A DNA stretch of 64,000 bases, taken from the sequence record MN850630.1; one strand, given 5' to 3'. This stretch comes from Escherichia phage naam. A model generated the notes under the pieces. That model searched no databases. It was not told where the DNA came from and was given only the letters and a program-made list of their open reading frames with translations. A program made the translations under genes and the position numbers. Of the stretch, positions 4,142 through 63,892 are shown piece after piece; the stretch's first letter is position 1, and every line of letters starts with the position of its first letter.

Positions 4142-7100
4142 TGCCAATTGCAATGATTGATAACATCGTTGCTTCTGCAAGATCTTCAAGTTATGACTGG
4201 AACGCATCCAAGGCAGCTCTGGCTGACAGCCTGAACACTGTGACCACCAGAACTTTGGATAAGATTTTTGAGGGCAACAAATCTTACAGAAGTCAGCAAG
4301 ATAGACAAAAGCTTCTCAGATCTTCTGCTGCACCTTGCTCTGTAGTGTATGGAAAGACACGCACATCTGGATTGCTTGCGTTTTTGGAGCAGGATAGCGA
4401 CAGAACCCTCCATTGTGCTATTGTTCTTGCCAATCACCCTCTGGAAGGTATAGAAGATATACTTATCGACGGTAATCCTATTTCCTCGTATGGAGATCTG
4501 GTATCGTGGGAGCTACATAACGACAGAAAAACATCTGATCCTTTCATGGGTACACACTGCCCATCATGGTCACCTGACATGATAGGTAGAGGGATCAGTT
4601 GGCTACGTGCCAGCTTCAGGTTTGACCCTAACAAGTTTCCTTTTGGGTTGCCAAACGTTACACTCGTCAAGATTGGTAAAAAATGCTATGATCCTCGTAT
4701 CAGTAAAGAGGTGTACACCAATAACGCTGCCTTGGTGATCCTAGACTATTTAAGAACGTACCTTAAATGTCCTGACGAAACCATCAACTGGGAGTCCTTC
4801 AAGGAGGCTGCCAACATATGCGACGAGGCGGTAAAAAACGCAGACGGAACCAGTGAGCGCCGTTACACCATTAACGGTGAGTTTGACATGGATGAGGCCC
4901 CAGCAAGTATTATGGCAGAAATGCTGAAAGCTTGCGGTGCAGATCTTAGTTATGTTGCTGGTAAGTATGGTTTGCTGGTTGGTGCATACTATGGCCCAGC
5001 AACAATGACACTTAGTGAGGACTGTGTCTGTGGTGAGGTTAAGATCTATCCGGAAGCCTCATTTGACAAAAGATCCAACACAATAACTGGCAGATTCACT
5101 AGCCCGACCAAAGGGTATTCTGAAACAGATTTTCCATCAGTGTTTGTCCCAGAGTGGATAGAGAAGGATGGAGAAAGAAAGATAATCGATATAGATTATC
5201 GCTTTGTTACCAGTCCTTACCAAGCTCAGCGTGTTTCTGCAATCTTCCTAAGACGTGCTAGAGCTGGCAGGATTATTGAAGTCACCTGCAATATGCGAGG
5301 TTTTAAATTTAAGCCTGGCCGTTATGTTACAATGGACCTCCCAAGTATTGGTATTGTGGGCCAAGAAATGAGGGTTCTTGAATGGGAGTTCACCAAAAAG
5401 GGCGGTGTCAAGGTAAAACTTCGTCAAGATGCTAAAGAGTGGAATGATGCCACAGGGCAACTTCCGGATTCCGGCGATGTAGATATTCCGATATCCCCGT
5501 CCGGTGTAGCTCAGCCGCAAAACTTCAGATACTCCGTTCTCCAAGCTGGGGAAGTAACTCACGGTGTTTTGGCCTGGGACAACGTTGGGACTTACGCTCA
5601 AAATATTGTGCAGGTAAGAAAGAACGGAGAGATTGTTTGGACAGCACAGACAGTTGAGCAGTTTGTCCGTGTTGAAGGTCTGACTAAAGGTTCCTACACA
5701 GCCACTGTTGTTGCAACATCTTATAAAGGTGGTGTATCTCCAGAAGCGTATTGTGAGTTTAACATTCAGGCACCTGAAGCTCCGGTTTCTGTAGAGGTTA
5801 AGCAAGGATACTTTGCTATCACCTTGATTCCGCATAGTAGGGATTTAGCAAGTGTTAGCACCCAGTATGACTTTTGGACATCCGGTATGACAAGGTTGCC
5901 CGACACCAGTGATGCAACCGTTACTTCAAACGCCACCCGTATGGGTGTTGGTTCAACTTGGACATCTGAAGGTCTGCAGAACGATAAGGTTTATTATTGG
6001 TATATTCGAACCACAAACGCTTTTGGTAGTTCTCAGTTTGTAGAATGCGCTGCACGCTGCTACACCTCTATTGAGGATTTGATGCCTCAGATAGATGCTG
6101 AATTCAAAAAGACAGAAACTTATAAAGAGTTGATGAGCACTTTGGATTCCTCTATTGAAGAGGTTGAAAATCGTGTCACAGAACTTAACAGGTACATGGA
6201 TGGTAGGGTAGATGAGGCATTCCAGCAACTTGGAGACAGAATAGGTGCGGTAGTTACAGAGACAACTCAGAAGTTTGAGGATGTCAATGGCAATATCACA
6301 GCGCTGGATAGGAAACTTGTTGCTGCACAGAACAAGTTCACCAACGATCTGAACACTGAAAGTGGAAGATTGGCATCCCTGATTGAGACAACCAATAAAG
6401 CAACTACTGATCTTCTGAACAAAAAGACAGAGGCTTTAGATGAGAAATTGGTTGCCGCCAAAGGTGAGCTGGTAGAGCAGATAGAGGGAGTTGAGAGCGG
6501 GTATTTAGCCGGAGATAAAACTCTGGATGGTAAGATCAATACTCAGAGAACAGAACTTGACGCAAGCATCTTGAGCACTAACCAGGCCACTGTGGATCTT
6601 TTGAACAGGACATCTGAAACTCTGGATCAAAAGATTAGTCAGACAAACGCGACGGTATCTAAAAACTATACCACCCTTGACGGCAAGATAACTACCGCAA
6701 AAACTGACCTCAACACCTTGATTGCCAATACCAACAAGGCCACCACTGACTTGTTGAATCAGAAAACATCTGCACTGTCAGAGCAGATAACTTCTGCACG
6801 TGGGGAGATTTCTACCAACAAGCAAGCGATTGATGCTTTGGATGGAAAACTGACCTCCACAAAAACAGCGCTGGATGCTACAATTTCCGATACCAATAAA
6901 GCCACTGTGGACCTTATCAACGGCACAGCGTCAGCTATTCGTCAAGAACTTGCTGTTGCTAAGCAGGAGATCATTGATGATGTTGGGGATGTGTCTGAGA
7001 TCAGGGCTGCAGTAGCTACAACATCTAAGGCTGTAACCGACTTAGAGGGTAAAGTAAATGCTCAATGGGGCACAAAAATACAGGTAGACTCCGCAGGGAA

Positions 7101-45126: not shown

Positions 45127-47904
45127 ATGAGCATGTGGTCGTTCGATTTTGAGTCATCCGGTTTGCTGGAAGACCCAGATCTTTATTATCACTGCGGCCT
45201 GTTTAAAGAGCTGAATAAGAACCGTTTTATGCTGTTCCTTCCTCTGAATGACCGCACACACTACTCCGAGGAGGATATAGAGAAGGCCAAGAACTTTATT
45301 CTGGCAAAGAAAACTCTTTATAAGGATTTTGAAGTTCGCATAGCAGATTTTTCGGAGTTGGAAGGTTGGCTTACAGGAAATTCCGACTGGTCACCAACAG
45401 CTTTGAACTGCCATAACTGCTACAGTTATGACTTTATGCTGATGGAGAGATTATCCGGTATTCATTTTGATATGTTCCGTGATCCTAAATGTATGGGGAC
45501 TATCAACGACCACCAGGTTAACCTGTTTGATACGTTGGCGATGAGCCGAATCTTGTGGCCTGATCGCCCTTTACCAAAAGGTTGTCCGGACTCCGTATTC
45601 AACCCGGTTACTAAGAAAATGCAGCCTGTTGGTCCTCACGGCCTTATGGCATGGGGCTACGCCCTTGGTAACCAGAAAGTTCAAATTGATGACTGGCGCG
45701 ATCTTCCGTTGTGGAAGTATGTGGATCGTGTATTCGAGGACGTTATCATCCAGGAGCTACTCTGGAAAGAGCTGGTAGCGGAATCAAAAGGTGTATTCTA
45801 CGGCAAATCTGACATGCAGAACTTTATGTACGATCCTGCCAAAGAGAAGCCGAAAGGGTTCAAGAAGATCACCTGGAAGAACGCATTGCGCCGGGGTATG
45901 CTGCAACACTTCCTGATGGAGCTGCAGGCCCGTCAGGGTGTGTATTTTGACATAGATGGGGCTATTGCTTTACGTGACCGTTGCGATGCTTGGATGAAAG
46001 AAATCGCTGATCGTGTTGAACCACAACTACCTTTAAAAGAGCTGTCAATGTCTCAGCGGCCCAAGTTCCCTGAAAAGCCGTTTAACCAAGATGGGACAAT
46101 CTCCAATAATGGTTGGAAATGGTTAAAAGATAAGCTTGGCTATCCTGTGGACATGAGTGCTTTAGAGTTCAAGGCCCCGCCTAAGCGAGCATTTACCTCT
46201 ACAGGAGATGTCAGTAAGATGGGGATAAAATGGTGTGAAGAGATGGGCTGCAAAGACCCAGATAAGATGGCTGATTTCTTGAGAGGCTATATTAAGGGCA
46301 CCTCCACACCACAACCTTTGCCTAAAGAGCTAATGGATCAGGCAATAAGTGATCTACAGCAGAAGCGAATGCCGGACTGCAAGATACCTATGAAAATCAG
46401 CAACCAGGACGACATTAAGCGATACCTGATCAGTGCTGGTTGGCTTCCGACAATGTGGAGAACTAAGGATGTAACTAAAGACAGCAAGAAGAAAGCTCTA
46501 CCTGATGCAGATGTTGATGCACGAGTATATGCATATATGGACGAGCTTTTAGAGTCAGAGTATTGTGACCTGATTATCAACTTCTGGAACAAAACTGATG
46601 CTAAGTTCCAGACAACCGTGCACAAGTTCCGAAGCTTTCCTAACTCCGAAAGGATTAAAAAGGAAGTATTCGGGAAAATACGTAGAAAAGCTAGGGCACT
46701 TATTACTTCTCCGCAACTGAAAGATACTTTTGGACACCTATGTCCAAATCTTGAAAAATTGAACGGAGAGATGGCTAAAGATATCGTCTTGTGGTTATCA
46801 TTGCGAAACCGCAGATCGGTCCTTGATCCAATCAAGGAGGATAAGGTTGATACTGGTCTTCTTAATCACCCACGTTTGAAGATTGACCATAAGCTTCCTG
46901 CTAAAAGCTCTGGATTAACAAACACTTCCCGACAGAAACACAGTATTTGTGCAAACATGCCTAAACCATCTCCTAAAGTGGTTATGGGTAAAGAGATGCG
47001 TAGTCTGTGGGGTGTTCCTCCAGGATACTTTGAGATCGGTATTGACGGGTCCAACTTAGAGCAGCTTATCGGGGCTTGGGGTGCCTTTGAGTTCGACAAC
47101 GGCTTGTATTATGATGTTGTAAGTAACGGAGACGCACACCAAAACAACGCCGAGGCATATACAAAAGTAGCAGGCAGAGAGGTATCTCGTAACGACGGTA
47201 AACCTATCACGTATGGGGTTATGTACGGGGCACAAAAAGACAAAGTTGCAGACATGCTGGATATCTCCCCAGAGTTGGGACAAAGGGTAATTGATGCACT
47301 TTGGGATGCCAACCCTGGTCTTAAGGGGCGTAAAGAAGATCTGGAGAAATTCTGGGAAGCAACGGGTAAGAAGTTTATCTACTCTTTTGATGGTCATGCT
47401 ATCTGGACCCGATCTAAACACTCTTTACTTAATGCATACCAACAGAATGGTGGTGCATCGTTGTGTGACTTAGTTGGGATACTCATGCACCACCAAATGG
47501 TGAAGCGTGGGTGGTACGATGAAGGTGTTCGTCGTATTATTTATTACCATGACGAATATCAGCTTCAAGTCCCTGACACACCTAAGTATAAGACTGTGTA
47601 CACCTTCGACACAATTGAAGAACTGGAAGCATTTAAGGCAGAGCAGGAGTCCAAACTTCATGTGTTCGACGGTCATAAGTACAAAAAGGCACGCAAGGAT
47701 GAGGACGGAAACGAAGTGGTTGACAGAGACGGAAACACGGTGTACGATCCTATCCTGAACGATGACGGAAAGCTTGAACTTATCTGGAGCCCTGTGGGTG
47801 AAATGGTGGTGCATTGCTTCTGGCAAGCTTCTAAAATGATGGGCGTCCCGTTTCAGATCACAGGTGAATACCTGTGTGGTCGTAATTGGGGTGATTGTCA
47901 CTAA
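45127..47904 (+). CDS. DNA polymerase, family A (Pol I-like) with N-terminal exonuclease region
   Basis: Motif B-like RNDGKPITYGVMYGAQ, motif C YYHDEYQLQV, N-terminal FDFESSGL exo-like motif; 925 aa. Confidence 0.85.
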   Translation: MSMWSFDFESSGLLEDPDLYYHCGLFKELNKNRFMLFLPLNDRTHYSEEDIEKAKNFILAKKTLYKDFEVRIADFSELEGWLTGNSDWSPTALNCHNCYSYDFMLMERLSGIHFDMFRDPKCMGTINDHQVNLFDTLAMSRILWPDRPLPKGCPDSVFNPVTKKMQPVGPHGLMAWGYALGNQKVQIDDWRDLPLWKYVDRVFEDVIIQELLWKELVAESKGVFYGKSDMQNFMYDPAKEKPKGFKKITWKNALRRGMLQHFLMELQARQGVYFDIDGAIALRDRCDAWMKEIADRVEPQLPLKELSMSQRPKFPEKPFNQDGTISNNGWKWLKDKLGYPVDMSALEFKAPPKRAFTSTGDVSKMGIKWCEEMGCKDPDKMADFLRGYIKGTSTPQPLPKELMDQAISDLQQKRMPDCKIPMKISNQDDIKRYLISAGWLPTMWRTKDVTKDSKKKALPDADVDARVYAYMDELLESEYCDLIINFWNKTDAKFQTTVHKFRSFPNSERIKKEVFGKIRRKARALITSPQLKDTFGHLCPNLEKLNGEMAKDIVLWLSLRNRRSVLDPIKEDKVDTGLLNHPRLKIDHKLPAKSSGLTNTSRQKHSICANMPKPSPKVVMGKEMRSLWGVPPGYFEIGIDGSNLEQLIGAWGAFEFDNGLYYDVVSNGDAHQNNAEAYTKVAGREVSRNDGKPITYGVMYGAQKDKVADMLDISPELGQRVIDALWDANPGLKGRKEDLEKFWEATGKKFIYSFDGHAIWTRSKHSLLNAYQQNGGASLCDLVGILMHHQMVKRGWYDEGVRRIIYYHDEYQLQVPDTPKYKTVYTFDTIEELEAFKAEQESKLHVFDGHKYKKARKDEDGNEVVDRDGNTVYDPILNDDGKLELIWSPVGEMVVHCFWQASKMMGVPFQITGEYLCGRNWGDCH

Positions 47905-55853: not shown

Positions 55854-56159
55854 TATTTTAAGTTATCAGGTTGCCAGAGATCAGGAGGATTTCTAAAATG
55901 GATTTCCTCCTTTTGATATTTTACCTACCAGGATATTTTAAAATCCTTAGAAAATCAGAAAATGGATCGAAAACTAAAATGGATTTTTCAGAGCAGGCAC
56001 GACGAGATGAACCACTCATCCTATCGTCTGCACCATATTCCAGACCACCATTACAGATTTCCCGCACATGCTCACACCCTTCTACTAGAACTTCCCCCAC
56101 TTACCCTTGACCTTTTATAGTAATAATCCAACCACTACCTTGAAGTTGTGGCGCAGCTT

Positions 56160-56345
56160 TCCAAGTACTCGATCTGTTTTTCGTTTCAAAGATTGAATTT
56201 TCTGAAAATTTTTCTCGATAAATTTCTCAGTACTCGATCTGTTTTTCGTTTTCTGAATCGGATTTTCTGGAAATCGTTCCGGCTCTCGACCTGAAATTTT
56301 TGGGGACGAAATCGATTTTTCGTTTTCAGAAATGGATTTTTAAAA
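56160..56345. repeat. Tandem direct repeats (about 65-bp period; two near-identical copies plus one degenerate), iteron-like
   Basis: agtactcgatctgtttttcgttt at 56164 and 56229; third diverged copy around 56307-56340; AT-rich, with recurring aaaatggat words nearby. Confidence 0.7.
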
Positions 56346-57793: not shown

Positions 57794-57821
57794 TTGACAC
57801 GCTGCAAAATTTAAGTAAACT
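57794..57821 (+). promoter_or_regulatory. Sigma70-like promoter (TTGACA-16-TAAACT) followed by 5'-UTR hairpin
   Basis: Hairpin ggcggga-atgtt-tcccgcc at 57832-57850 between the -10 and the RBS. Confidence 0.6.
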
Positions 57822-57869
57822 AGACACAAAAGGCGGGAATGTTTCCCGCCAGCACAAAGGAAAAAGATC

Positions 57870-58265
57870 ATGAATAAGAACGTACGCCGCATCATGAACG
57901 AACTGGCAAACGATGAAAAAATTATTGATATGCATTTGGTCAACATTTGCCGCCGTTGTGTAACATATAACAACCGCGCCGCAAAAGCGCGTGAGATGAA
58001 CGCAAAAGGCACCTTAAAGCCCTTTCAGGTGGTTGTAAAATCTATAACTAGCGCAGCAGGCCAGGCGCAGGACCACAACAACGAGAGCGCTAATATTGAT
58101 CCGTCTTACGTAATGAAACGGATCCGGACTTGCAAGAATAAAGAGCAGGTATATAACGTCATAGATTGGCTGGACTCCCTGGGCGATGTGGTTTACAATA
58201 GGTTTTCTGCAGCTATCGAGATCCAGCTTGACAGATTGGACGGGAAAGTACTAAAAACTTATTGA
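57870..58265 (+). CDS. Early protein, hypothetical
   Basis: 131 aa ORF with RBS aaggaaaaag. Confidence 0.55.
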   Translation: MNKNVRRIMNELANDEKIIDMHLVNICRRCVTYNNRAAKAREMNAKGTLKPFQVVVKSITSAAGQAQDHNNESANIDPSYVMKRIRTCKNKEQVYNVIDWLDSLGDVVYNRFSAAIEIQLDRLDGKVLKTY

Positions 58266-58313
58266 GTTTATTTTTAGATGGCCTTGACACCAGGGCCATC
58301 AATAAAGTAAACT
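58266..58313 (+). promoter_or_regulatory. Repeated 47-bp element, copy 1: palindrome GATGGCC-N10-GGCCATC around TTGACA, then TAAACT
   Basis: Starts right after the upstream stop; palindrome arms at 58277-58283 and 58294-58300; -35 at 58284-58289; -10-like at 58308-58313. Confidence 0.6.
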
Positions 58314-58345
58314 AACCACAGTTGAGCGGAAAAGGAGGCTTAAAG

Positions 58346-58465
58346 ATGAGCACTACACGCCAGCACACAAAGGTAACCATCATCGTTTGCATCATTGGGT
58401 ACATCCTGGCGCAAATGTTGATGGGTAGCGCCAACGGTGTCGCAAAATTTTTCTTAAACTTTTAA
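58346..58465 (+). CDS. Small hydrophobic peptide (39 aa), hypothetical
   Basis: Not in the ORF track; ATG after RBS aaaaggagg; product MSTTRQHTKVTIIVCIIGYILAQMLMGSANGVAKFFLNF has one predicted TM helix. Confidence 0.4.
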   Translation: MSTTRQHTKVTIIVCIIGYILAQMLMGSANGVAKFFLNF

Positions 58466-58493
58466 TTGACAAGCTAACTTAAATCGATATAAT
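58466..58493 (+). promoter_or_regulatory. Consensus sigma70 promoter (TTGACA-16-TATAAT)
   Basis: Followed by a small 5'-UTR hairpin (gggaa...ttccc) and the strong RBS of the acidic protein gene. Confidence 0.75.
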
Positions 58494-58544
58494 AAGCACA
58501 TAAACGGGAAAACTTCCCAGAACACACAAAAGGAGAAAAACACC

Positions 58545-58886
58545 ATGACTACTATGACCGCCTCAGAAAAAGCTATGCAGATCGCTGAACTGAAAAAACA
58601 GATCGCAGACCTTGAGAATAAGATCGATAACTTTGAAATCGACGAGGACAAGTACGACGAAAACTATGATGAATGGTTAGACGAGATCTACGGCGAAATT
58701 ATGATCGGAAACATTTCTTTTCTTCCGTCGCGTATCCTCAAGGAGCTAGATCCTATCGCTTACCGCTGCGGATTTAGCGACTACATCGACAGCCTGGATA
58801 TTGAGGACGATGAAGAATACCAGGAATTACAGACAGAGTTAGAAGAAGCAAAAGAAGAGCTTGCGGAGCTGGAAGAAAACGAGTAA
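58545..58886 (+). CDS. Highly acidic 113-aa protein, candidate DNA mimic / anti-restriction (Ocr-like in concept)
   Basis: About one third D+E by hand count, very few K/R, coiled-coil-like segments; behind a perfect consensus promoter. Confidence 0.5.
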   Translation: MTTMTASEKAMQIAELKKQIADLENKIDNFEIDEDKYDENYDEWLDEIYGEIMIGNISFLPSRILKELDPIAYRCGFSDYIDSLDIEDDEEYQELQTELEEAKEELAELEENE

Positions 58887-58934
58887 GCTTATTTTTAGAT
58901 GGCCTTGACACCAGGGCCATCAATAAAGTAAACT
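58887..58934 (+). promoter_or_regulatory. Repeated 47-bp element, copy 2
   Basis: Identical core ttatttttagatggccttgacaccagggccatcaataaagtaaac immediately after the stop codon. Confidence 0.6.
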
Positions 58935-58975
58935 TTATACTGTTAACACTGAACTAATGCATAGGAGTTAAAACC

Positions 58976-59221
58976 ATGGCAGCACTAATCACCAAATATT
59001 ATGCCCCTACCAACACCAAAAGCGCCCGTATCATGGTAAAAGGCTTCGGACGTAAAAAGGTGTACACCTGGGATTATGCCTTAGACACGGAAGACAACTA
59101 CACCAACGCGATGACCGATTTTATTAATGATCTGAACACGCGGATCTTGACAAATTATAAAATTACCGATATTGCCTATATAGGGGAAGGCGGGATCTGT
59201 TTTGTCGGTATCGTCAAATAA
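58976..59221 (+). CDS. Early protein, hypothetical
   Basis: 81 aa ORF with RBS aggag. Confidence 0.55.
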   Translation: MAALITKYYAPTNTKSARIMVKGFGRKKVYTWDYALDTEDNYTNAMTDFINDLNTRILTNYKITDIAYIGEGGICFVGIVK

Positions 59222-59296
59222 GCTGTTTTTTCGGTGGTCCTGGTAGCAGGGCCATCTATAAAGATAGTTTATCAATACAATGAAAGGAGAAAGTAC

Positions 59297-59650
59297 ATGA
59301 TCAGCGGGGCAAGTTTTATTATTGGCGCTATTGCTACGGCTTTAATTGTAAACAAGATCCAATCTAAAAACGAAAAAGATAGCAACGCCCTTACAGAATA
59401 CCCGTTTTGGGTATTCAACGACAATGAAGACTATATTATCAAGTACAAGAATGAGAAGGGCGACCAGGTAACACCGCGACCGATCCCGGCTTACAAGATG
59501 CAAGAAACACTATACCGCCTAAAGGCTGGAGGCGCAAAAATCGTAGACTTTTGGGGATACGATCACACAGATCAGGAAGTTATAAAGCGCCGTATCCGGG
59601 CTATTCAGGCCAATATTGAAGTTAGCAAGGGGGGAATATATGAAGATTAA
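59297..59650 (+). CDS. Early protein with N-terminal transmembrane helix, hypothetical
   Basis: ATG at 59297 with RBS aaaggagaaag (track start 59234 lies in the degenerate repeat copy); MISGASFIIGAIATALIV. Confidence 0.5.
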   Translation: MISGASFIIGAIATALIVNKIQSKNEKDSNALTEYPFWVFNDNEDYIIKYKNEKGDQVTPRPIPAYKMQETLYRLKAGGAKIVDFWGYDHTDQEVIKRRIRAIQANIEVSKGGIYED

Positions 59651-59837
59651 TTTTGAGAAGATTGTAAAGCGATCTCATGATTCCGAAGAGCTGCCGGAAC
59701 GCCGCCAGCGCAACAATAAACTGAATAAGCCAAAAAGATTTGGGAAGATCTGGCGGAATCATTATGATCGCAAATTACCGGGCCTGCTTTTGGAACGTGA
59801 ACGACAGGCGGAACGATACCGCCACAAAGGCAAATAA
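59640..59837 (+). CDS. Small highly basic protein, hypothetical
   Basis: ATG at 59640 with RBS aagggggga (track start 59616); Arg/Lys-rich. Confidence 0.45.
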   Translation: MKINFEKIVKRSHDSEELPERRQRNNKLNKPKRFGKIWRNHYDRKLPGLLLERERQAERYRHKGK

Positions 59838-59845
59838 CAACCAAC

Positions 59846-59874
59846 GCCCCGCCATTGTGCGGGGCTTTTTATTT
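59846..59874 (+). terminator. Rho-independent terminator
   Basis: gccccgc-cattgt-gcggggc followed by tttttattt. Confidence 0.8.
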
Positions 59875-60018
59875 CTATCCTACGAATAGCGCCCCTGGTT
59901 GGCCCTGTAAGCGCCAAAAAGGCCCCACCTATACAATCGCCCCCCTTTAACCTGAAAACATCGCTTAGGGCCGTTTTATGGCGTTAAAAATATCATTGAC
60001 AGTGATTTTATTTAAAGC

Positions 60019-60046
60019 TTGACATCTTAAACAGGTTAGCTATACT
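60019..60046 (+). promoter_or_regulatory. Sigma70-like promoter (TTGACA-16-TATACT)
   Basis: A second TTGACA lies 23 nt upstream (59996). Confidence 0.65.
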
Positions 60047-60078
60047 AACCACATCAAAGAGAGAAAGGAGTAAACGCC

Positions 60079-60339
60079 ATGCGTAAATTAAAAAATTTTG
60101 ATAAAGTTGATGTTGTCCTGAATAATTTTTACTACTGCAACAACAAGGCCATTTGGTGGCGTGATAGTTCCACCGATAAAGTTAAAGCTCGCTTTCTCCA
60201 AGGGCACTGGCAAGGCCGTCCAGTGATTAAAATACTGGGGCAACTGGTAGCGTTTAAAAATTGCCGCCGTGTTGATGACGTTGAAGAGATCTTGAACATT
60301 TTACGCCACAATAATTTAAAAAATAGTGTTGACAAGTAA
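60079..60339 (+). CDS. Early protein, hypothetical
   Basis: 86 aa ORF with RBS aaaggag. Confidence 0.55.
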   Translation: MRKLKNFDKVDVVLNNFYYCNNKAIWWRDSSTDKVKARFLQGHWQGRPVIKILGQLVAFKNCRRVDDVEEILNILRHNNLKNSVDK

Positions 60340-60356
60340 ATCTCGATAAGTATACT
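60329..60356 (+). promoter_or_regulatory. Sigma70-like promoter (TTGACA-16-TATACT) followed by 5'-UTR hairpin
   Basis: -35 overlaps the upstream gene's 3' end; hairpin ggcgggaaaacttcccgcc at 60367-60385. Confidence 0.65.
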
Positions 60357-60413
60357 TAAACACACAGGCGGGAAAACTTCCCGCCACTAACAAAGAAAAT
60401 AGGAGAAAATATC

Positions 60414-61037
60414 ATGACCACCGTTAACATTACCACAGGTTACAATTTATCTTTCGACGTGCTGACCGACGAACAAAAAGAAAAAGCTATTGAAATGGTC
60501 CGCGAAAGAGAAGAACACAGCGGGGATAATTTTTTTGCAGAAAGTGTAATTGAACACTATAAAGAATATGTCTTTCCAGAGTACGGCCTTGAAGATACCG
60601 AAGTACGTTGGTCCGGCTTTTGGTGTCAAGGCGATGGCGCGTCAATCAGTGCTGAAAACGTGGATTTAGAAAAATTCTTGCGTAAAGTAAAGGCCCTGAC
60701 CAAGTTCCGATCAATTCGTCACTTGTTCGGCACAATGCACGATGGCGAGTTATCAGCCAGTGTTGAACGTATCCCGTTTAGCCATTATCATCACGAAAAC
60801 ACAATAGGAGGGTGCATCGATACTAATTGGCTAGACCTGACCACCAAGCAAGAGGACAAAGTTGAAGAGCTGGAAGAGCTGATCACCGAGACGGTACGGG
60901 AGCTATCACGCAAGGTTTACGTAGACCTGGAGGAGGCCTATCTTGAACAGTTTACTACCGAAAACCTGATCGGCCTTATTGAAGCCAATGATTGGCGGTT
61001 TGATGTGGATGAATATGGGGAGATGAGTTTTTCATAA
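60414..61037 (+). CDS. Acidic early protein (207 aa), hypothetical
   Basis: ORF with RBS aggagaaaa; D/E-rich. Confidence 0.55.
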   Translation: MTTVNITTGYNLSFDVLTDEQKEKAIEMVREREEHSGDNFFAESVIEHYKEYVFPEYGLEDTEVRWSGFWCQGDGASISAENVDLEKFLRKVKALTKFRSIRHLFGTMHDGELSASVERIPFSHYHHENTIGGCIDTNWLDLTTKQEDKVEELEELITETVRELSRKVYVDLEEAYLEQFTTENLIGLIEANDWRFDVDEYGEMSFS

Positions 61038-61045
61038 ATAAAGTG

Positions 61046-61073
61046 TTGCAATAATCTAAAAACCTGCTATATT
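61046..61073 (+). promoter_or_regulatory. Sigma70-like promoter (TTGCAA-16-TATATT) followed by 5'-UTR hairpin
   Basis: Hairpin at 61084-61103 whose loop contains the ATG wrongly used by the ORF track. Confidence 0.6.
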
Positions 61074-61127
61074 AAAAACTCAAGGGGCGAGATGACTTGC
61101 CCCCCACAAAACAAAGAGGAAAACATC

Positions 61128-61508
61128 ATGAAAAACACTACTAAAGCTATTGACACCGTTATGTTTAACCTGGTTACATTCCGTGAAGATATGAAAGATC
61201 TTCCACGTGAAACAGTGTGCGACCATATCGAAAACTATCGCAAACTAATCAAAGAGTTGCCTTTAAAACGTGACCAGTACGCGGCTAACGCTATGCTTAA
61301 CGCCATGATCAAAAAGATGATCCAGTGTGATTTAACTCTGGCCTATGATTATGCAGGCGGTCGTTTTGCAGTATACAATCAGCCCGTGCCCGGTATGAGC
61401 ACCACCGAAGAATTGCACGCGTTAAATCTGAAACAAGATGTATGGGATAACATGCCCCGCGTGGTGGTGTGGGCAGAAAGCGGAAAGATTTACGGCGATA
61501 ATTTTTAA
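61128..61508 (+). CDS. Early protein, hypothetical
   Basis: ATG at 61128 with RBS aagagga (track start 61092 is in the UTR hairpin loop). Confidence 0.5.
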   Translation: MKNTTKAIDTVMFNLVTFREDMKDLPRETVCDHIENYRKLIKELPLKRDQYAANAMLNAMIKKMIQCDLTLAYDYAGGRFAVYNQPVPGMSTTEELHALNLKQDVWDNMPRVVVWAESGKIYGDNF

Positions 61509-61572
61509 TCAGGTAACAGGCGGCATATTTGCCGCCTTATTGTTAAACAGAACTGCAAAAGAGGTACATAGA

Positions 61573-61944
61573 ATGGAATTTATTATTTTGGCTGTAGTAG
61601 TTGCCTTGTTCAACGCCTGGATCGCTGGCAAGATGGGTAGATCCGCCTTTTTATGGTTTATTATATCTATTTTCCTGGGGGTGGTTGCAACTATTGTACT
61701 TGTTATCCTTGCAATTGTTGACAAGGGGAATAATAGAAAGGGTAAAGTATTTTCAGACCTGTACGACGCTCAAACATTTGTCAACGCCTACTACAGCGAT
61801 CTTCCAGTCTCCCTACGTTGCAGCCTTGCACAACAGGTTTTCGATGAAGCTAAAACCAGAGATCACGCCCATGAGATTTGTTTAACTGAGGCGGATCGCC
61901 TATTTGAGAGGAATAGAAAATATGTGGACCAGCCGTTTAAATAA
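61573..61944 (+). CDS. Small membrane protein (two predicted TM helices), hypothetical
   Basis: ATG at 61573 with RBS aaaagagg (track start 61438 overlaps the upstream gene); MEFIILAVVVALFNAWIAG and LWFIISIFLGVVATIVLVILAIV. Confidence 0.5.
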   Translation: MEFIILAVVVALFNAWIAGKMGRSAFLWFIISIFLGVVATIVLVILAIVDKGNNRKGKVFSDLYDAQTFVNAYYSDLPVSLRCSLAQQVFDEAKTRDHAHEICLTEADRLFERNRKYVDQPFK

Positions 61945-62143
61945 TGCCACGTTAATTAACCCCTTTAGTGAAGATTTGAAGCCAGCCGCCTGGCGGGATG
62001 GATTCAATAACGAAAGCTTTATTTTCAGGCCTGATCTTAAGGAATTTTATAACAATGGATCGAACAACGACAGAGATAATTTTTCTTGTAATGTGCGTGG
62101 TGATAATACTCCTGGGGGCCATTGCAAACCACGTCACTGCTAA
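61922..62143 (+). CDS. Hypothetical small protein (frame uncertain)
   Basis: ATG at 61922 after gagagg; an alternative overlapping frame (61998-62180) encodes a TM peptide, so the assignment is ambiguous. Confidence 0.3.
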   Translation: MWTSRLNNATLINPFSEDLKPAAWRDGFNNESFIFRPDLKEFYNNGSNNDRDNFSCNVRGDNTPGGHCKPRHC

Positions 62144-62163
62144 CAGGAGGAAAGGGGGAGACG

Positions 62164-62283
62164 ATGACACCCAAGGATAAGCCCCGCACCGATAAGGCGC
62201 GCCGTGTTATGGTATGGCTTGAGATCATCGCCCTTGAAATATTGTTAGGCGTAGGGATGTATTTTATCGCTGTAAGTAACTGA
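62164..62283 (+). CDS. Small membrane peptide (39 aa), hypothetical
   Basis: Not in the ORF track; ATG after strong RBS aggaggaaagggggag; hydrophobic WLEIIALEILLGVGMYFIAV; terminator follows. Confidence 0.4.
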   Translation: MTPKDKPRTDKARRVMVWLEIIALEILLGVGMYFIAVSN

Positions 62284-62287
62284 TAAC

Positions 62288-62325
62288 GGCCCCGATCCCT
62301 GGGGCCTAACTTTTCAAATTTTTTT
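62288..62325 (+). terminator. Rho-independent terminator
   Basis: ggcccc-gatccct-ggggcc followed by taacttttcaaattttttt. Confidence 0.75.
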
Positions 62326-62336
62326 CTCCCTGAGTG

Positions 62337-62365
62337 TTGCAATCCGATCCAGAATATGGATAATA
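62337..62365 (+). promoter_or_regulatory. Sigma70-like promoter (TTGCAA-17-ATAATA) followed by 5'-UTR hairpin
   Basis: Shares aatatggataata with the promoter at 63155; hairpin gggga-gacac-tcccc at 62375-62389. Confidence 0.55.
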
Positions 62366-62423
62366 ACAATCAACGGGGAGACACTCCCCACCGCATAGAC
62401 AAAGTTCCAAAAGGAGAAACAAA

Positions 62424-62624
62424 ATGAGCAACAATATCCGCGTTATTAACTTCAAAAAAGAAGAAAAAATTGCCGTGCTGATTGACGGTCAAGAAATCTT
62501 TAAAGGTGATTATGAAGATCATCAAACGGCGATTAGTATCACTCGCGTGATTGGTTACCATAATTTTTACCCTCAAGGCGCTGAGGCAGCAGTAAAACGA
62601 ATTAAAGAGATTGTAGGCCTGTAA
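62424..62624 (+). CDS. Early small protein, hypothetical
   Basis: 66 aa ORF with RBS aaaggagaaa. Confidence 0.5.
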   Translation: MSNNIRVINFKKEEKIAVLIDGQEIFKGDYEDHQTAISITRVIGYHNFYPQGAEAAVKRIKEIVGL

Positions 62625-62673
62625 AATTTATTTTTAGATGGCCTTGACTCCAGGGCCATCAATAAAGTAAATT
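62625..62673 (+). promoter_or_regulatory. Repeated 47-bp element, copy 3 (TTGACT variant)
   Basis: Palindrome arms at 62637-62643 and 62654-62660; immediately after the upstream stop. Confidence 0.6.
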
Positions 62674-62715: not shown

Positions 62716-63015
62716 ATGTTTATCCAGGCTAATAATCTTTATTTCTTTGATGGTCAGATCGTAGACGGCGTGGAGGTGGAAATAACCGGGTGCCCTGGCG
62801 GTCAGGTTATGACTTTTCGGAATAATGCCTTTGATGATTCTCATATCGTTATGAGAATGGAAGTTAGTAAGCTGGATGACAAGAAAACACTTATCGACTA
62901 TTCCGTCAAAGATCATCCAGACTACCACATGATCTATGGTGATTTGTGCATTGTTGACCGTGACAAGGTGAACGGCATTGTTATAGCCATTGTGAACGAT
63001 GTTTTCTCTGAATAA
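62716..63015 (+). CDS. Early protein, hypothetical
   Basis: ATG at 62716 is 8 nt after RBS aaaggag (track GTG start 62695). Confidence 0.5.
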   Translation: MFIQANNLYFFDGQIVDGVEVEITGCPGGQVMTFRNNAFDDSHIVMRMEVSKLDDKKTLIDYSVKDHPDYHMIYGDLCIVDRDKVNGIVIAIVNDVFSE

Positions 63016-63154
63016 TTCCGGCAAATGATGCAAAATAAGGCCCCTAGCAGGGCCTGCAGCGATATAATCACATAAAGGCTATGCGGTTGCATGGCCTTTA
63101 TTATTTTAGCGTTACAGCGGCCCCAAGGCGCTTAAAAAATTTTTAAAGAAGTAC

Positions 63155-63183
63155 TTGCATCAAGTCCTACAATATGGATAATA
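63155..63183 (+). promoter_or_regulatory. Sigma70-like promoter (TTGCAT-17-ATAATA) followed by 5'-UTR hairpin
   Basis: Hairpin ggggg-cgg-ccccc at 63195-63207. Confidence 0.55.
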
Positions 63184-63239
63184 GGACGTGTCAGGGGGGC
63201 GGCCCCCAATCATTAACCGGATAGATAGGAGTTAAAATC

Positions 63240-63817: not shown

Positions 63818-63845
63818 TTGACATGGCCTTATAAGACTGTAGAAT
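63818..63845 (+). promoter_or_regulatory. Sigma70-like promoter (TTGACA-16-TAGAAT) followed by 5'-UTR hairpin
   Basis: Starts right after the upstream stop; hairpin ggggc-aa-gcccc at 63856-63867. Confidence 0.6.
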
Positions 63846-63892
63846 ATAAATCAAAGGGGCAAGCCCCATCAACGGCAAAGAGGATAAAAATC

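What the first reader, a model, noticed from the sequence alone, without database searches (positions are those of the whole stretch)
58266..62673. A 47-bp element with palindrome GATGGCC-N10-GGCCATC around a TTGACA -35 box occurs three times (plus one degenerate copy)
Copies at 58266-58313, 58887-58934 and 62625-62673 share the core ttatttttagatggccttgaca(c/t)cagggccatcaataaagtaaa. Each starts 0-1 nt after a stop codon and precedes the RBS of the next gene. A degenerate fourth copy (cagggccatctataaag) is at 59247-59263. The inverted repeat flanks the -35 hexamer, so a dimeric regulator bound there would occlude the promoter. On read-through RNA the same sequence folds into a 7-bp stem with a 10-nt loop and could instead be an RNase III-type processing site, as between T7 early genes. 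Either way it marks a co-regulated subset of early genes (58346 peptide, 58976, 62716).
Basis: seen in the sequence. Interest (0 to 1): 0.6.

Follow-up and report, generated by a model that had tools for sequence, protein, structure and literature searches.

The report
Repeated processing-type RNA hairpin between early genes
A 49-base sequence found four times between small early genes of an rV5-like coliphage folds, as RNA, into a two-part hairpin shaped like the RNase III cutting sites of phage T7; it is a new example of a known kind of signal, and probably not a repressor site on a promoter.

Summary
The repeat is real. There are three near-identical copies (58265-58313, 58886-58934, 62625-62673) and a fourth copy that is full length, 69% identical and in register (59221-59269). 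The window is an rV5-like coliphage (Vequintavirus).

On the + strand RNA each copy forms:
- a 10-bp G+C-rich upper stem with a 4-nt loop;
- a 2x3-nt asymmetric internal loop;
- a 7-13-bp A/U-rich lower stem that starts at the upstream stop codon.

Copy 4 differs from copy 1 at 15 of 49 positions. Ten of these lie in paired positions, and all ten keep the pair, through three double compensatory changes and four changes to or from a G·U pair. Copy 4 has lost the TTGACA. The complementary strand folds poorly. So the RNA helix is the conserved feature, not a DNA palindrome around a -35 box.

The shape matches T7 early RNase III sites folded the same way. Copies 1-3 also read as a moderate sigma-70 promoter. 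Relatives carry deletions whose junctions are hybrids of two copies, as with the PeSL cassettes of T4-like phages.

Most likely this is a host RNase III processing and 3'-end-protecting hairpin inside a PeSL-like intergenic cassette. Cleavage is inferred, not shown.

The parts
58265..58313 (+). Copy 1. Lower helix 58265-58274 with 58304-58313; internal loop 58275-58276 and 58301-58303; upper helix 58277-58286 with 58291-58300; loop ACAC 58287-58290. Promoter-like hexamers TTGACA 58284-58289 and TAAACT 58308-58313.
   Evidence: (82.4 bits)
58886..58934 (+). Copy 2. Upper helix 58898-58907 with 58912-58921; loop ACAC; lower helix of 7 bp, then one C·A mismatch, then 2 bp. TTGACA 58905-58910 and TAAACT 58929-58934.
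   Evidence: (79.8 bits)
59218..59272 (+). Copy 4, diverged (repeat register 59221-59269). Upper helix GGUGGUCCUG/CAGGGCCAUC 59233-59242 with 59247-59256; loop GUAG; 2x3 internal loop; 13-bp lower helix 59218-59230 with 59260-59272. No -35 hexamer (CTGGTA).
   Evidence: -28.2 kcal/mol, z -6.7; 71.6 bits
62624..62674 (+). Copy 3 (repeat register 62625-62673). Upper helix 62637-62646 with 62651-62660; loop ACUC; 11-bp lower helix. TTGACT 62644-62649 and TAAATT 62668-62673.
   Evidence: (83.7 bits)
57870..58265 (+). Gene upstream of copy 1 (131 aa, PHROG 13245, function unknown). It is driven by the sigma-70 promoter at 57794-57821, with no terminator before copy 1.
58346..58465 (+). Gene downstream of copy 1: a 39-aa hydrophobic peptide (PHROG 16391).
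58545..58886 (+). Gene upstream of copy 2 (113 aa, PHROG 9294), with its own strong promoter at 58466-58493. This gene and the 39-aa peptide gene are missing in relatives whose junction is a copy 1/copy 2 hybrid.
58976..59221 (+). Gene between copy 2 and copy 4 (81 aa, PHROG 3199). It is missing in phage 241Ecol014PP, whose junction is a copy 2/copy 4 hybrid.
59297..59650 (+). Gene downstream of copy 4 (117 aa, PHROG 12734). No promoter-like site lies in front of it, so it must be read through from upstream.
62424..62624 (+). Gene upstream of copy 3 (66 aa, PHROG 12347), with a promoter at 62337-62364.
62716..63015 (+). Gene downstream of copy 3 (99 aa, PHROG 7366), followed by terminator-like hairpins at 63038-63101.

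Best explanation
The element is an RNA signal carried on read-through early transcripts of an rV5-like coliphage.

Proposed mechanism:
- A strong upstream sigma-70 promoter transcribes gene A, then the element, then gene B.
- Once the ribosome has left the stop codon at the foot of the element, the RNA folds into a quasi-continuous helix of about 22-26 bp: a 10-bp upper stem with a tetraloop, a 2x3-nt asymmetric internal loop, and a 7-13-bp A/U lower stem.
- Host RNase III is predicted to bind this helix and, as at T7 early sites, to cut once on the 3' side of the internal loop (about AAU^AAAG).
- The upstream message then ends in a 3' hairpin that protects it from exonucleases. The downstream message is released with a new 5' end 35-45 nt before its start codon.

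In three of the four copies the same DNA also reads as a moderate sigma-70 promoter. Its transcripts would start just past the helix. The 44-49-bp identity between copies also makes them endpoints for homologous recombination that removes or swaps the small genes between them, which is the layout of PeSL cassettes.

Shown here: the repeat, the conserved RNA pairing with covariation, the strand asymmetry, the match in shape to T7 sites, and the hybrid junctions in relatives. Inferred: cleavage by RNase III, the position of the cut, and promoter activity.
For: Identity and spread:
- The window is 97% identical to Escherichia phage nom, a Vequintavirus.
- About 120 Vequintavirus records carry the element, and nothing outside the genus does.

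Structure:
- The + strand RNA folds to -23.5 to -28.2 kcal/mol (z -4.5 to -6.7) with the same bipartite structure in all four copies. The minus strand gives z -1.4 to -2.5.
- RNAalifold predicts the same 20 pairs independently.

Covariation, on 26 distinct sequences:
- 97.1% of cells are paired, against 35-59% when the partners are slid.
- The upper helix is 100% paired, and every change in it converts to or from a G·U pair.
- Four lower-helix pairs show changes on both sides (AU/GC/GU, UA/CG, UA/GU/AU, AU/UA).
- Copy 4 differs from copy 1 at 15 sites, 10 of them in paired positions. All 20 pairs are kept. Random substitution at the same sites does this with P = 0.001-0.03, and at random sites with P <= 1e-4.
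- The loop is the most variable part of the element.

Comparison with T7:
- T7 R0.3, R0.5, R1, R1.1 and R4.7, folded the same way, show a 9-10-bp G+C-rich upper stem, a 4-5-nt loop, an internal loop of 1-2 nt on the 5' side and 3 nt on the 3' side (UAU or AAU), and an A/U-rich lower stem that takes in the upstream stop codon.
- The second and third base pairs below the loop, U-A then U·G, are the same as in T7 R1.1. They match the UA/UG 'distal box' described in PMC1540722.
- The general rules also fit: about two helical turns, and an internal loop that limits cutting to one strand and leaves a protective 3' hairpin (PMC1540722).

Context:
- No terminator lies between the upstream promoters and any copy.
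- The gene after copy 4 has no promoter of its own.
- Hybrid junctions: copy 1-left/copy 2-right in magaca and L010, with the 621 bp between them missing; copy 2-left/copy 4-right in 241Ecol014PP, with the 81-aa gene missing.
Against: - No RNA-end or cleavage data exist for any rV5-like phage in the searched literature.
- RNase III specificity cannot be computed. With an 11-bp count from the loop, the base pair at the foot of the upper stem is G-C, where PMC1540722 prefers A-U. In copy 4 the U·G of the distal box is C-G, which in that study lowers reactivity.
- Copies 1-3 are near-identical paralogues that recombine with one another, so the covariation rests on few independent events, mostly copy 4 against the rest.
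- TTGAC is invariant in copies 1-3 while loop positions 3-4 vary. This is what a functional -35 would also give.
- Phage Gotham carries a copy 1 with a 5-nt deletion that destroys the hairpin, so that copy at least is dispensable.
- A more distant E. coli-infecting member of the subfamily (A7_1) has no such hairpin in the 42.6 kb examined around its DNA polymerase gene.
- The T7 site coordinates came from my memory of the GenBank annotation. They were checked only by their fit to intergenic hairpins.
Confidence: 0.5

Rival explanations
1. A PeSL-type promoter plus attenuator. The hairpin stops or slows RNA polymerase coming from upstream, and the embedded sigma-70 promoter restarts transcription for the next gene. 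RNase III plays no part.
For: - The layout matches the published PeSL description: a stop codon in an A/T-rich tract, a stem-loop with G·T pairs that may overlap the -35 box, a -10 box, a Shine-Dalgarno sequence and a start codon, all in regions of small unknown genes that vary between relatives. One PeSL stem-loop lowered downstream lacZ expression as much as rrnB T1 (PMC2839356; PMC4122927).
- The promoter scan scores copies 1-2 at 10 of 12 and copy 3 at 9 of 12.
- PhagePromoter calls promoters on copies 2 and 3 in the Gotham GenBank record.
- TTGAC is invariant in copies 1-3.
Against: - The hairpin is followed by AAUAAAGUAAA, not by a U-tract. The U-rich tract comes before it and pairs with the A-rich tract after it, which is the reverse of an intrinsic terminator. 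The phage's ordinary terminators nearby do have U-tracts (59846, 61518, 62288).
- Copy 4 keeps the whole helix without a usable -35 or -10 box.
- A conserved asymmetric internal loop and a covarying lower helix have no role in attenuation.
- The spacer is 18 nt, against 16-17 nt in the phage's strong promoters, and the -10 matches 4 of 6 in copies 1-2 and 3 of 6 in copy 3.
- The rV5 authors did not list these sites among their 33 promoters.
Confidence: 0.2
2. A structured RNA that works without RNase III. It would act either as a barrier to 3' exonucleases after cleavage elsewhere (like REP or other intercistronic stabiliser hairpins), or as the binding site of a phage or host RNA-binding protein that sets the relative expression of neighbouring genes.
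For: - The conserved pairing, the + strand specificity and the position at the 3' ends of cistrons.
- The upper-stem sequence is almost invariant, more than pairing alone would require.
- A/U-rich single-stranded flanks could be RNase E sites. This is inference from general knowledge of RNase E.
Against: - A simple exonuclease barrier does not need a second helix, or an internal loop kept at the same place in a copy that is 31% diverged.
- A helix of about 22 bp in E. coli is, by the length rule, a substrate for RNase III unless it is protected (PMC1540722).
- No candidate binding protein was identified; all neighbouring proteins are of unknown function.
Confidence: 0.15
3. One reading: a dimeric DNA-binding regulator recognises GATGGCC-N10-GGCCATC and occludes the -35 box of a promoter shared by a set of early genes.
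For: - A perfect 7+7 palindrome surrounds TTGACA in three copies.
- A promoter-like -10 box lies 18 nt away.
Against: - In copy 4 the left arm is GGTGGTC. That is 2 mismatches to the palindrome on DNA, but full pairing as RNA, and the -35 box is gone.
- Pairing extends 3 bp into the 'spacer', leaving a 4-nt loop, and continues in the flanks with compensatory changes.
- The centre of the putative operator is the most variable part.
- No DNA-binding protein is evident among the neighbouring genes.
Confidence: 0.05
4. A repeat with no function of its own: a leftover linker from cassette recombination, or a selfish repeat, that happens to be palindromic.
For: - Copies are endpoints of deletions in relatives.
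- One copy is broken in Gotham without obvious harm.
Against: - Neutral decay would not keep 20 of 20 pairs across 15 substitutions.
- It would not keep the element at the same four junctions in about 120 genomes.
Confidence: 0.05

Closest known systems
Phage T7 early RNase III processing sites (R0.3, R0.5, R1, R1.1, R1.3, R4.7)
   Same: - Both sit between cistrons of polycistronic early mRNA made by host RNA polymerase.
- Both have a G+C-rich upper stem of about 10 bp with a tetraloop, and an asymmetric internal loop whose 3' side is UAU or AAU.
- Both have an A/U-rich lower stem that overlaps the upstream stop codon.
- Both have U-A and U·G pairs next to the loop-closing pair, as in R1.1.
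- T7 sites also sit beside promoters (phi1.1A/B, phi1.3, phi4.7).
   Different: - There is no sequence homology to T7.
- The lower helix is longer and more regular here, 7-13 contiguous bp. T7 sites fail my strict descriptor.
- The copies are near-identical repeats rather than individually diverged sites.
- Here the promoter hexamers lie inside the helix itself.
- Cleavage is untested.
PeSLs (promoter-early stem-loops) of T4-like phages RB49/phi1, PST/T4 and nt-1/KVP40 (Arbiol et al. 2010, PMC2839356; Comeau et al. 2014, PMC4122927)
   Same: - Both are repeated intergenic cassettes with the same order of parts: a stop codon in an A/T-rich tract, a sigma-70-like promoter, a stem-loop with G·T pairs that can overlap the -35 box, a Shine-Dalgarno sequence and a start codon.
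- Both cluster among small genes of unknown function.
- In both, recombination between copies accounts for insertions and deletions between close relatives, with hybrid junctions.
   Different: - The host phage is an rV5-like Vequintavirus, not a T4-like phage.
- There are only four copies of this type.
- The stem-loop here is a long bipartite helix with covariation, not a short G-run/C-run hairpin.
- One copy has no promoter.
- Mini-circles were not tested.
- The other promoters of this region (G-run/C-run hairpin just after the -10 box) look more like classic RB49 PeSLs than this element does.
Lambda sib / int retroregulation by RNase III
   Same: Both are RNase III-type hairpins placed 3' of a gene, so that they control the fate of the upstream message. 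This comparison rests on established knowledge and was not tested here.
   Different: sib is cut on both strands, which exposes the upstream message to 3' decay. The internal loop here predicts a T7-like single cut that leaves a protective hairpin.
Operator palindromes overlapping a -35 box
   Same: An inverted repeat around TTGACA in three copies.
   Different: The pattern of conservation is that of RNA pairing (G·U pairs, compensatory changes, strand asymmetry), and the -35 box is dispensable in copy 4.

Membership tests
E. coli RNase III substrate of the T7 early-site type | A quasi-continuous double helix of about two turns (about 20 bp or more) | tested here: met
   10 bp, then a 2x3 internal loop, then 7-13 bp in all four copies and in 26 distinct sequences from relatives. 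The length rule is from PMC1540722.
E. coli RNase III substrate of the T7 early-site type | An asymmetric internal loop between the upper and lower stems, which limits cutting to one strand | tested here: met
   The 2-nt (UA/UC) by 3-nt (AAU/UAU/GAU) loop is kept in copy 4 although both loop sequences differ. T7 R0.5, R1, R1.1 and R4.7 show 1-2 nt by 3 nt loops when folded the same way.
E. coli RNase III substrate of the T7 early-site type | Distal-box and proximal-box base pairs compatible with binding and cleavage | tested here: inconclusive
   U-A and U·G sit next to the loop-closing pair, as in R1.1, in copies 1-3. Copy 4 has U-A and C-G. The foot of the upper stem is G-C, where A-U is preferred. 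The box register cannot be fixed without knowing the cut site.
E. coli RNase III substrate of the T7 early-site type | Cleavage by RNase III in vitro, or rnc-dependent RNA ends in vivo | not testable with these tools
   No transcript-end data for rV5-like phages were found.
E. coli RNase III substrate of the T7 early-site type | Pairing maintained by selection on the transcribed strand | tested here: met
   97.1% of cells are paired against 35-59% for slid controls. Four pairs have changes on both sides. The upper helix is 100% paired, with changes only to or from G·U. The minus strand folds poorly.
PeSL (promoter-early stem-loop cassette) | An intergenic unit running from the upstream stop codon in an A/T-rich tract to the Shine-Dalgarno sequence and start codon of the next gene | tested here: met
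   definition from PMC2839356
PeSL (promoter-early stem-loop cassette) | A near-consensus sigma-70 promoter (-35 box, about 17 nt, -10 box) | tested here: inconclusive
   Copies 1-2 have TTGACA-18-TAAACT (10 of 12) and copy 3 has TTGACT-18-TAAATT (9 of 12). Copy 4 has none. Activity was not tested.
PeSL (promoter-early stem-loop cassette) | A stable stem-loop in or next to the promoter (a subclass overlaps the -35 box) | tested here: met
PeSL (promoter-early stem-loop cassette) | Copies mark insertions and deletions between close relatives, with hybrid junctions | tested here: met
   A copy 1/copy 2 hybrid in magaca (L021) and L010. A copy 2/copy 4 hybrid in 241Ecol014PP (L022).
PeSL (promoter-early stem-loop cassette) | Described only in T4-like myoviruses; excised mini-circles detectable | tested here: not met
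   The host phage is a Vequintavirus. Mini-circles cannot be tested here. So the element works like a PeSL, but I do not file it as a member of the T4-phage family.
Intrinsic (Rho-independent) terminator | A G+C-rich hairpin followed directly by a U-tract | tested here: not met
   The hairpin is followed by AAUAAAGUAAA. The terminator scan does not report any copy on either strand.
Operator palindrome for a dimeric DNA-binding protein | Two-fold symmetric half-sites conserved at the DNA level | tested here: not met
   In copy 4 the left arm is GGTGGTC against a right arm of GGCCATC. The symmetry is broken on DNA but kept as RNA G·U pairs.

The most novel reading that the evidence does not exclude
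One 49-bp module carries three functions at once. As DNA it is a sigma-70 promoter whose -35 and -10 hexamers lie inside the upper and lower helices. As RNA on read-through transcripts it is an RNase III site, so processed and newly started messages have nearly the same 5' end. As a repeat it is a portable linker that lets small early genes be lost, gained or swapped. That would be PeSL-style modular shuffling outside the T4-like phages, in a region that also holds a homologue of T7 gene 1.1.
Probability: 0.3. Interest if true: 0.5.

Novelty: new member of a known kind. Interest (0 to 1): 0.35.

Why it matters
rV5-like phages are widely isolated and used as therapeutic and biocontrol coliphages, yet their early gene expression has been described only by promoter and terminator prediction. 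If these hairpins are RNase III sites, then:
- Early messages of this group are processed as in T7, which affects how expression of the many small unknown early genes should be read.
- Annotation pipelines that call the sites promoters, as in the Gotham record, are at best half right.
- The same repeats explain recurrent loss of specific early genes among close relatives, which helps in interpreting genome differences between therapeutic isolates.

It does not open a new class of mechanism.

Tried and rejected
- **Rfam:** an E-value scan of 56-64 kb found nothing at the element.
- **Further copies:** the covariance model R1, run with filters off on the whole window and on nom 90-136 kb, found only the four known copies. 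A strict bipartite-hairpin descriptor found only the same four in 64 kb and none in the distant relative A7_1. It was too strict to recover the less regular T7 sites, so it cannot serve as a general RNase III site finder.
- **Public collections:** IMG/VR and metagenome scans for CAGGGCCATC[N/W]ATAAAG returned mostly chance 16-17-mers. The few rV5-like contigs added no new variants.
- **rV5_ev146:** I suspected a repeat-mediated 4.4-kb deletion, but its local deletion (57857-58357) has a microhomology junction unrelated to the repeat.
- **Literature:** no transcript-end data for Vequintavirus and no mention of PeSLs in rV5-like phages. The rV5 paper's promoter and terminator table does not contain the element. 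The Certrevirus paper reports only sigma-70-like promoters.
- **Neighbouring proteins:** Pfam and PHROGs gave no regulator or nuclease candidates.
- **Terminator reading:** rejected because there is no U-tract.

Full report
**What the window is.** The 57-64 kb stretch is 94-97% identical to more than 100 rV5-like coliphages (Vequintavirus), with Escherichia phage nom the best match at 97.3%. In nom, the genes matching the window's + strand form one long leftward unit. It runs from rIIB, helicase, primase and DNA polymerase into dozens of small genes of unknown function. The finding lies in that tail of small genes. There, strong sigma-70 promoters and a few ordinary terminators alternate.

**Checking the observation.** The 44-mer core occurs three times with at most one mismatch, and shuffles gave 0 expected matches. 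The palindrome pattern with up to two mismatches gives four sites against 0.13 expected. The repeat finder places four 49-nt copies in register at 58265, 58886, 59221 and 62625; the third of these is 69% identical to the reference. Each copy begins at the last base of a stop codon and is followed by a Shine-Dalgarno sequence and a start codon. The 'degenerate' copy is full length.

**Anatomy.** Folded as RNA, the + strand of every copy gives the same bipartite hairpin:
- a 10-bp upper stem, GAUGGCCUUG/CAGGGCCAUC, with one U·G pair;
- a 4-nt loop;
- an internal loop of 2 nt on the 5' side and 3 nt on the 3' side;
- a lower stem of 7-13 bp formed by the U-rich 5' flank and the A-rich 3' flank.

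Energies are -23.5 to -28.2 kcal/mol, with z-scores of -4.5 to -6.7. The complementary strand folds much less well (z -1.4 to -2.5), because the G·U pairs become C·A mismatches. TTG of the '-35' lies in the stem and ACA in the loop. The '-10' TAAACT is the 3' strand of the lower stem. The upstream stop codon lies at the foot of the lower stem.

**Is the pairing selected?** Copy 4 differs from copy 1 at 15 of 49 positions.
- Three differences are in the tetraloop and two are in the internal loop.
- Ten are in paired positions, and all ten preserve pairing.
- In the upper stem there are three changes: A-U to G·U, C-G to U·G, and U·G to C-G.
- In the lower stem there are three double changes (A-U to U-A, U-A to G·U, U-A to C-G) and one change from G-C to G·U.

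Random substitution at the same positions keeps all 20 pairs with P = 0.001-0.03, depending on transition bias. At random positions P is at most 1e-4.

I collected the four sites from eleven further genomes or contigs. This gave 26 distinct sequences. On that alignment 97.1% of cells are paired, against 35-59% when the partners are slid by 1-3 columns. The upper helix is 100% paired. Four lower-helix pairs show changes on both sides, including C-G to U-A between orthologous versions of copy 4. RNAalifold predicts the same 20 pairs without being told the structure. The loop is the most variable part: ACAC, ACUC, ACGC, ACCC, ACUU and AUAAC in copies 1-3, and GUAG, GUUG, GCUG and GUAA in copy 4.

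The caveat is that copies 1-3 are near-identical and recombine with one another. The number of independent events is therefore small.

**What this rules out.** A DNA palindrome bound by a dimeric regulator should keep two-fold symmetry on DNA and should keep the promoter it regulates. Copy 4 does neither. Its left arm is GGTGGTC and its '-35' is CTGGTA, yet it keeps the helix. An intrinsic terminator needs a U-tract after the hairpin. Here the U-rich tract comes before it, and the terminator scan reports no copy, while ordinary terminators with U-tracts lie nearby at 59846, 61518 and 62288.

**What it resembles.** I folded 81-nt windows around the T7 early RNase III sites. The coordinates came from my memory of the T7 GenBank annotation, because the RefSeq record does not list these sites. 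All the positions fall in the expected intergenic hairpins. R0.3, R0.5, R1, R1.1 and R4.7 show a 9-10-bp G+C-rich upper stem, a 4-5-nt loop, an internal loop of 1-2 nt by 3 nt whose 3' side is UAU or AAU, and an A/U-rich lower stem that reaches the upstream stop codon. That is the same plan as here, down to the 3' internal-loop triplets (AAU and UAU) and the U-A, U·G pairs next to the loop-closing pair, as in R1.1.

Pertzev and Nicholson (PMC1540722) state that E. coli RNase III substrates typically span two helical turns. They also state that internal loops limit cleavage to one phosphodiester, leaving a 3' hairpin that protects against exonucleases, and that a UA/UG distal box favours binding. 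The proximal-box preferences are only partly met, and copy 4 lacks the U·G pair. I score the sequence determinants as inconclusive.

**The second resemblance: PeSL cassettes.** These T4-like phage elements (PMC2839356, PMC4122927) are repeated intergenic units. Each consists of a stop codon in an A/T-rich tract, a sigma-70-like promoter, a stem-loop that may overlap the -35 box (drawn with G·T pairs), and a Shine-Dalgarno sequence with a start codon. They cluster among small variable genes and serve as recombination points.

Copies 1-3 fit that description. The promoter scan scores copies 1-2 at 10 of 12 (TTGACA, 18 nt, TAAACT) and copy 3 at 9 of 12. PhagePromoter features sit on copies 2 and 3 in the Gotham GenBank record. 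The rV5 paper's list of 33 promoters omits them.

The recombination signature is also present. Phage magaca and contig L010 have a single element with the left flank of copy 1 and the right flank of copy 2, and they lack the 621 bp between (the 39-aa and 113-aa genes). Phage 241Ecol014PP has a copy 2/copy 4 hybrid and lacks the 81-aa gene.

**Distribution.** BLAST finds the element in about 120 Vequintavirus records, usually at three places per record; the diverged copy 4 is too different for BLAST to detect. It finds the element in no other phage group. The covariance model finds four copies per genome and none in the 42.6 kb around the DNA polymerase gene of A7_1, a distant member of the subfamily that infects E. 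coli. IMG/VR and metagenome scans add nothing new. Rfam has no match. In Gotham, copy 1 carries a 5-nt deletion that abolishes the hairpin, so that copy is dispensable.

**Most likely mechanism.** Read-through early transcripts fold into the bipartite helix once the ribosome has terminated at its foot. Host RNase III then cuts on the 3' side of the internal loop. The upstream cistron keeps a protective 3' hairpin and the downstream cistron is released.

In three of the four copies the DNA may also act as a moderate promoter. Its transcripts would begin about 7 nt past the helix, close to the processed 5' end.

The identity of the copies makes them recombination endpoints.

I put 0.5 on this composite. 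I put roughly 0.85 on the narrower claim that a + strand RNA helix is the selected feature, rather than a DNA operator.

The rivals are:
- a PeSL-style attenuator plus promoter without RNase III (0.2);
- a structured RNA acting without RNase III (0.15);
- a functionless repeat (0.05).

**Novelty and interest.** Neither the rV5 genome paper nor any other paper in the searched library describes the element. However, both things it resembles are known kinds. It is a new member, confined to one genus and present in four copies. I score interest at 0.35. It is a clean example of a covarying phage RNA element mis-annotated as a promoter, and it is directly testable, but it would not greatly surprise a specialist.

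Noticed in passing
window 57794-57850, 58466-58519, 60329-60385, 61046-61103, 62337-62393, ~63153-63208, 63818-63870: Seven of the strong sigma-70 promoters in this region are followed, 10-13 nt after the -10 box, by a short G-run/C-run hairpin (for example GGCGGGAAaacTTCCCGCC and GGGGCaagCCCC). The hairpin would sit at the extreme 5' end of the message. This is the layout of the RB49/phi1 PeSL subclass 'stem-loop downstream of the -10'. It could stabilise the 5' end.
   Followed up: partly
window 59640-59837: A 65-aa ORF in the same operon, two genes after copy 4, matches Pfam PF08200 'Bacteriophage 1.1 protein' (T7 gp1.1) at 42.3 bits against a cutoff of 21. In T7, gene 1.1 lies directly after the RNase III site R1.1.
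   Followed up: partly
window 56155-56340: Three imperfect direct repeats of about 47-57 nt, spaced 65 and 74 nt apart. They appear to fall in a roughly 1-kb stretch that has no annotated gene in relatives (nom 115639-116653, mapped by my own coordinate conversion). This may be the 'non-coding' box of the rV5 paper. A replication origin or another cis site was not examined.
   Followed up: no
L002 (Gotham) 4909-4966: Copy 1 in phage Gotham has a 5-nt deletion (CCAGGGCCATCAAT becomes CCAATCAAT). It removes the 3' arm of the upper stem and shortens the -35/-10 spacing to 13 nt. It is either a dispensable copy or a sequencing error.
   Followed up: partly
L025 (rV5_ev146) 598-780; window 57857-58357: rV5_ev146 has lost the 131-aa gene and copy 1. 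The junction lies at the microhomology CCAGCACACAAAGG, not in the repeat. This fuses the 5' leader of the 57794 promoter to the middle of the 39-aa peptide gene.
   Followed up: yes
phage collection hits: About 17-22 GenBank records named 'Campylobacter phage', with Campylobacter jejuni given as host, are 92-97% identical to this coliphage region. They are probably rV5-like coliphages carried along in those preparations, or mislabelled.
   Followed up: no
window 45127-47904 (DNA polymerase) compared with relatives: The polymerase gene is intact here (925 aa). In ime, FFH2 and FV3 it matches in two pieces with an HNH endonuclease annotated under the match. In YP-6 it matches in three pieces and in 10C2_SA_NWU in two, without an HNH annotation. 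This suggests a mobile insertion in some lineages.
   Followed up: no
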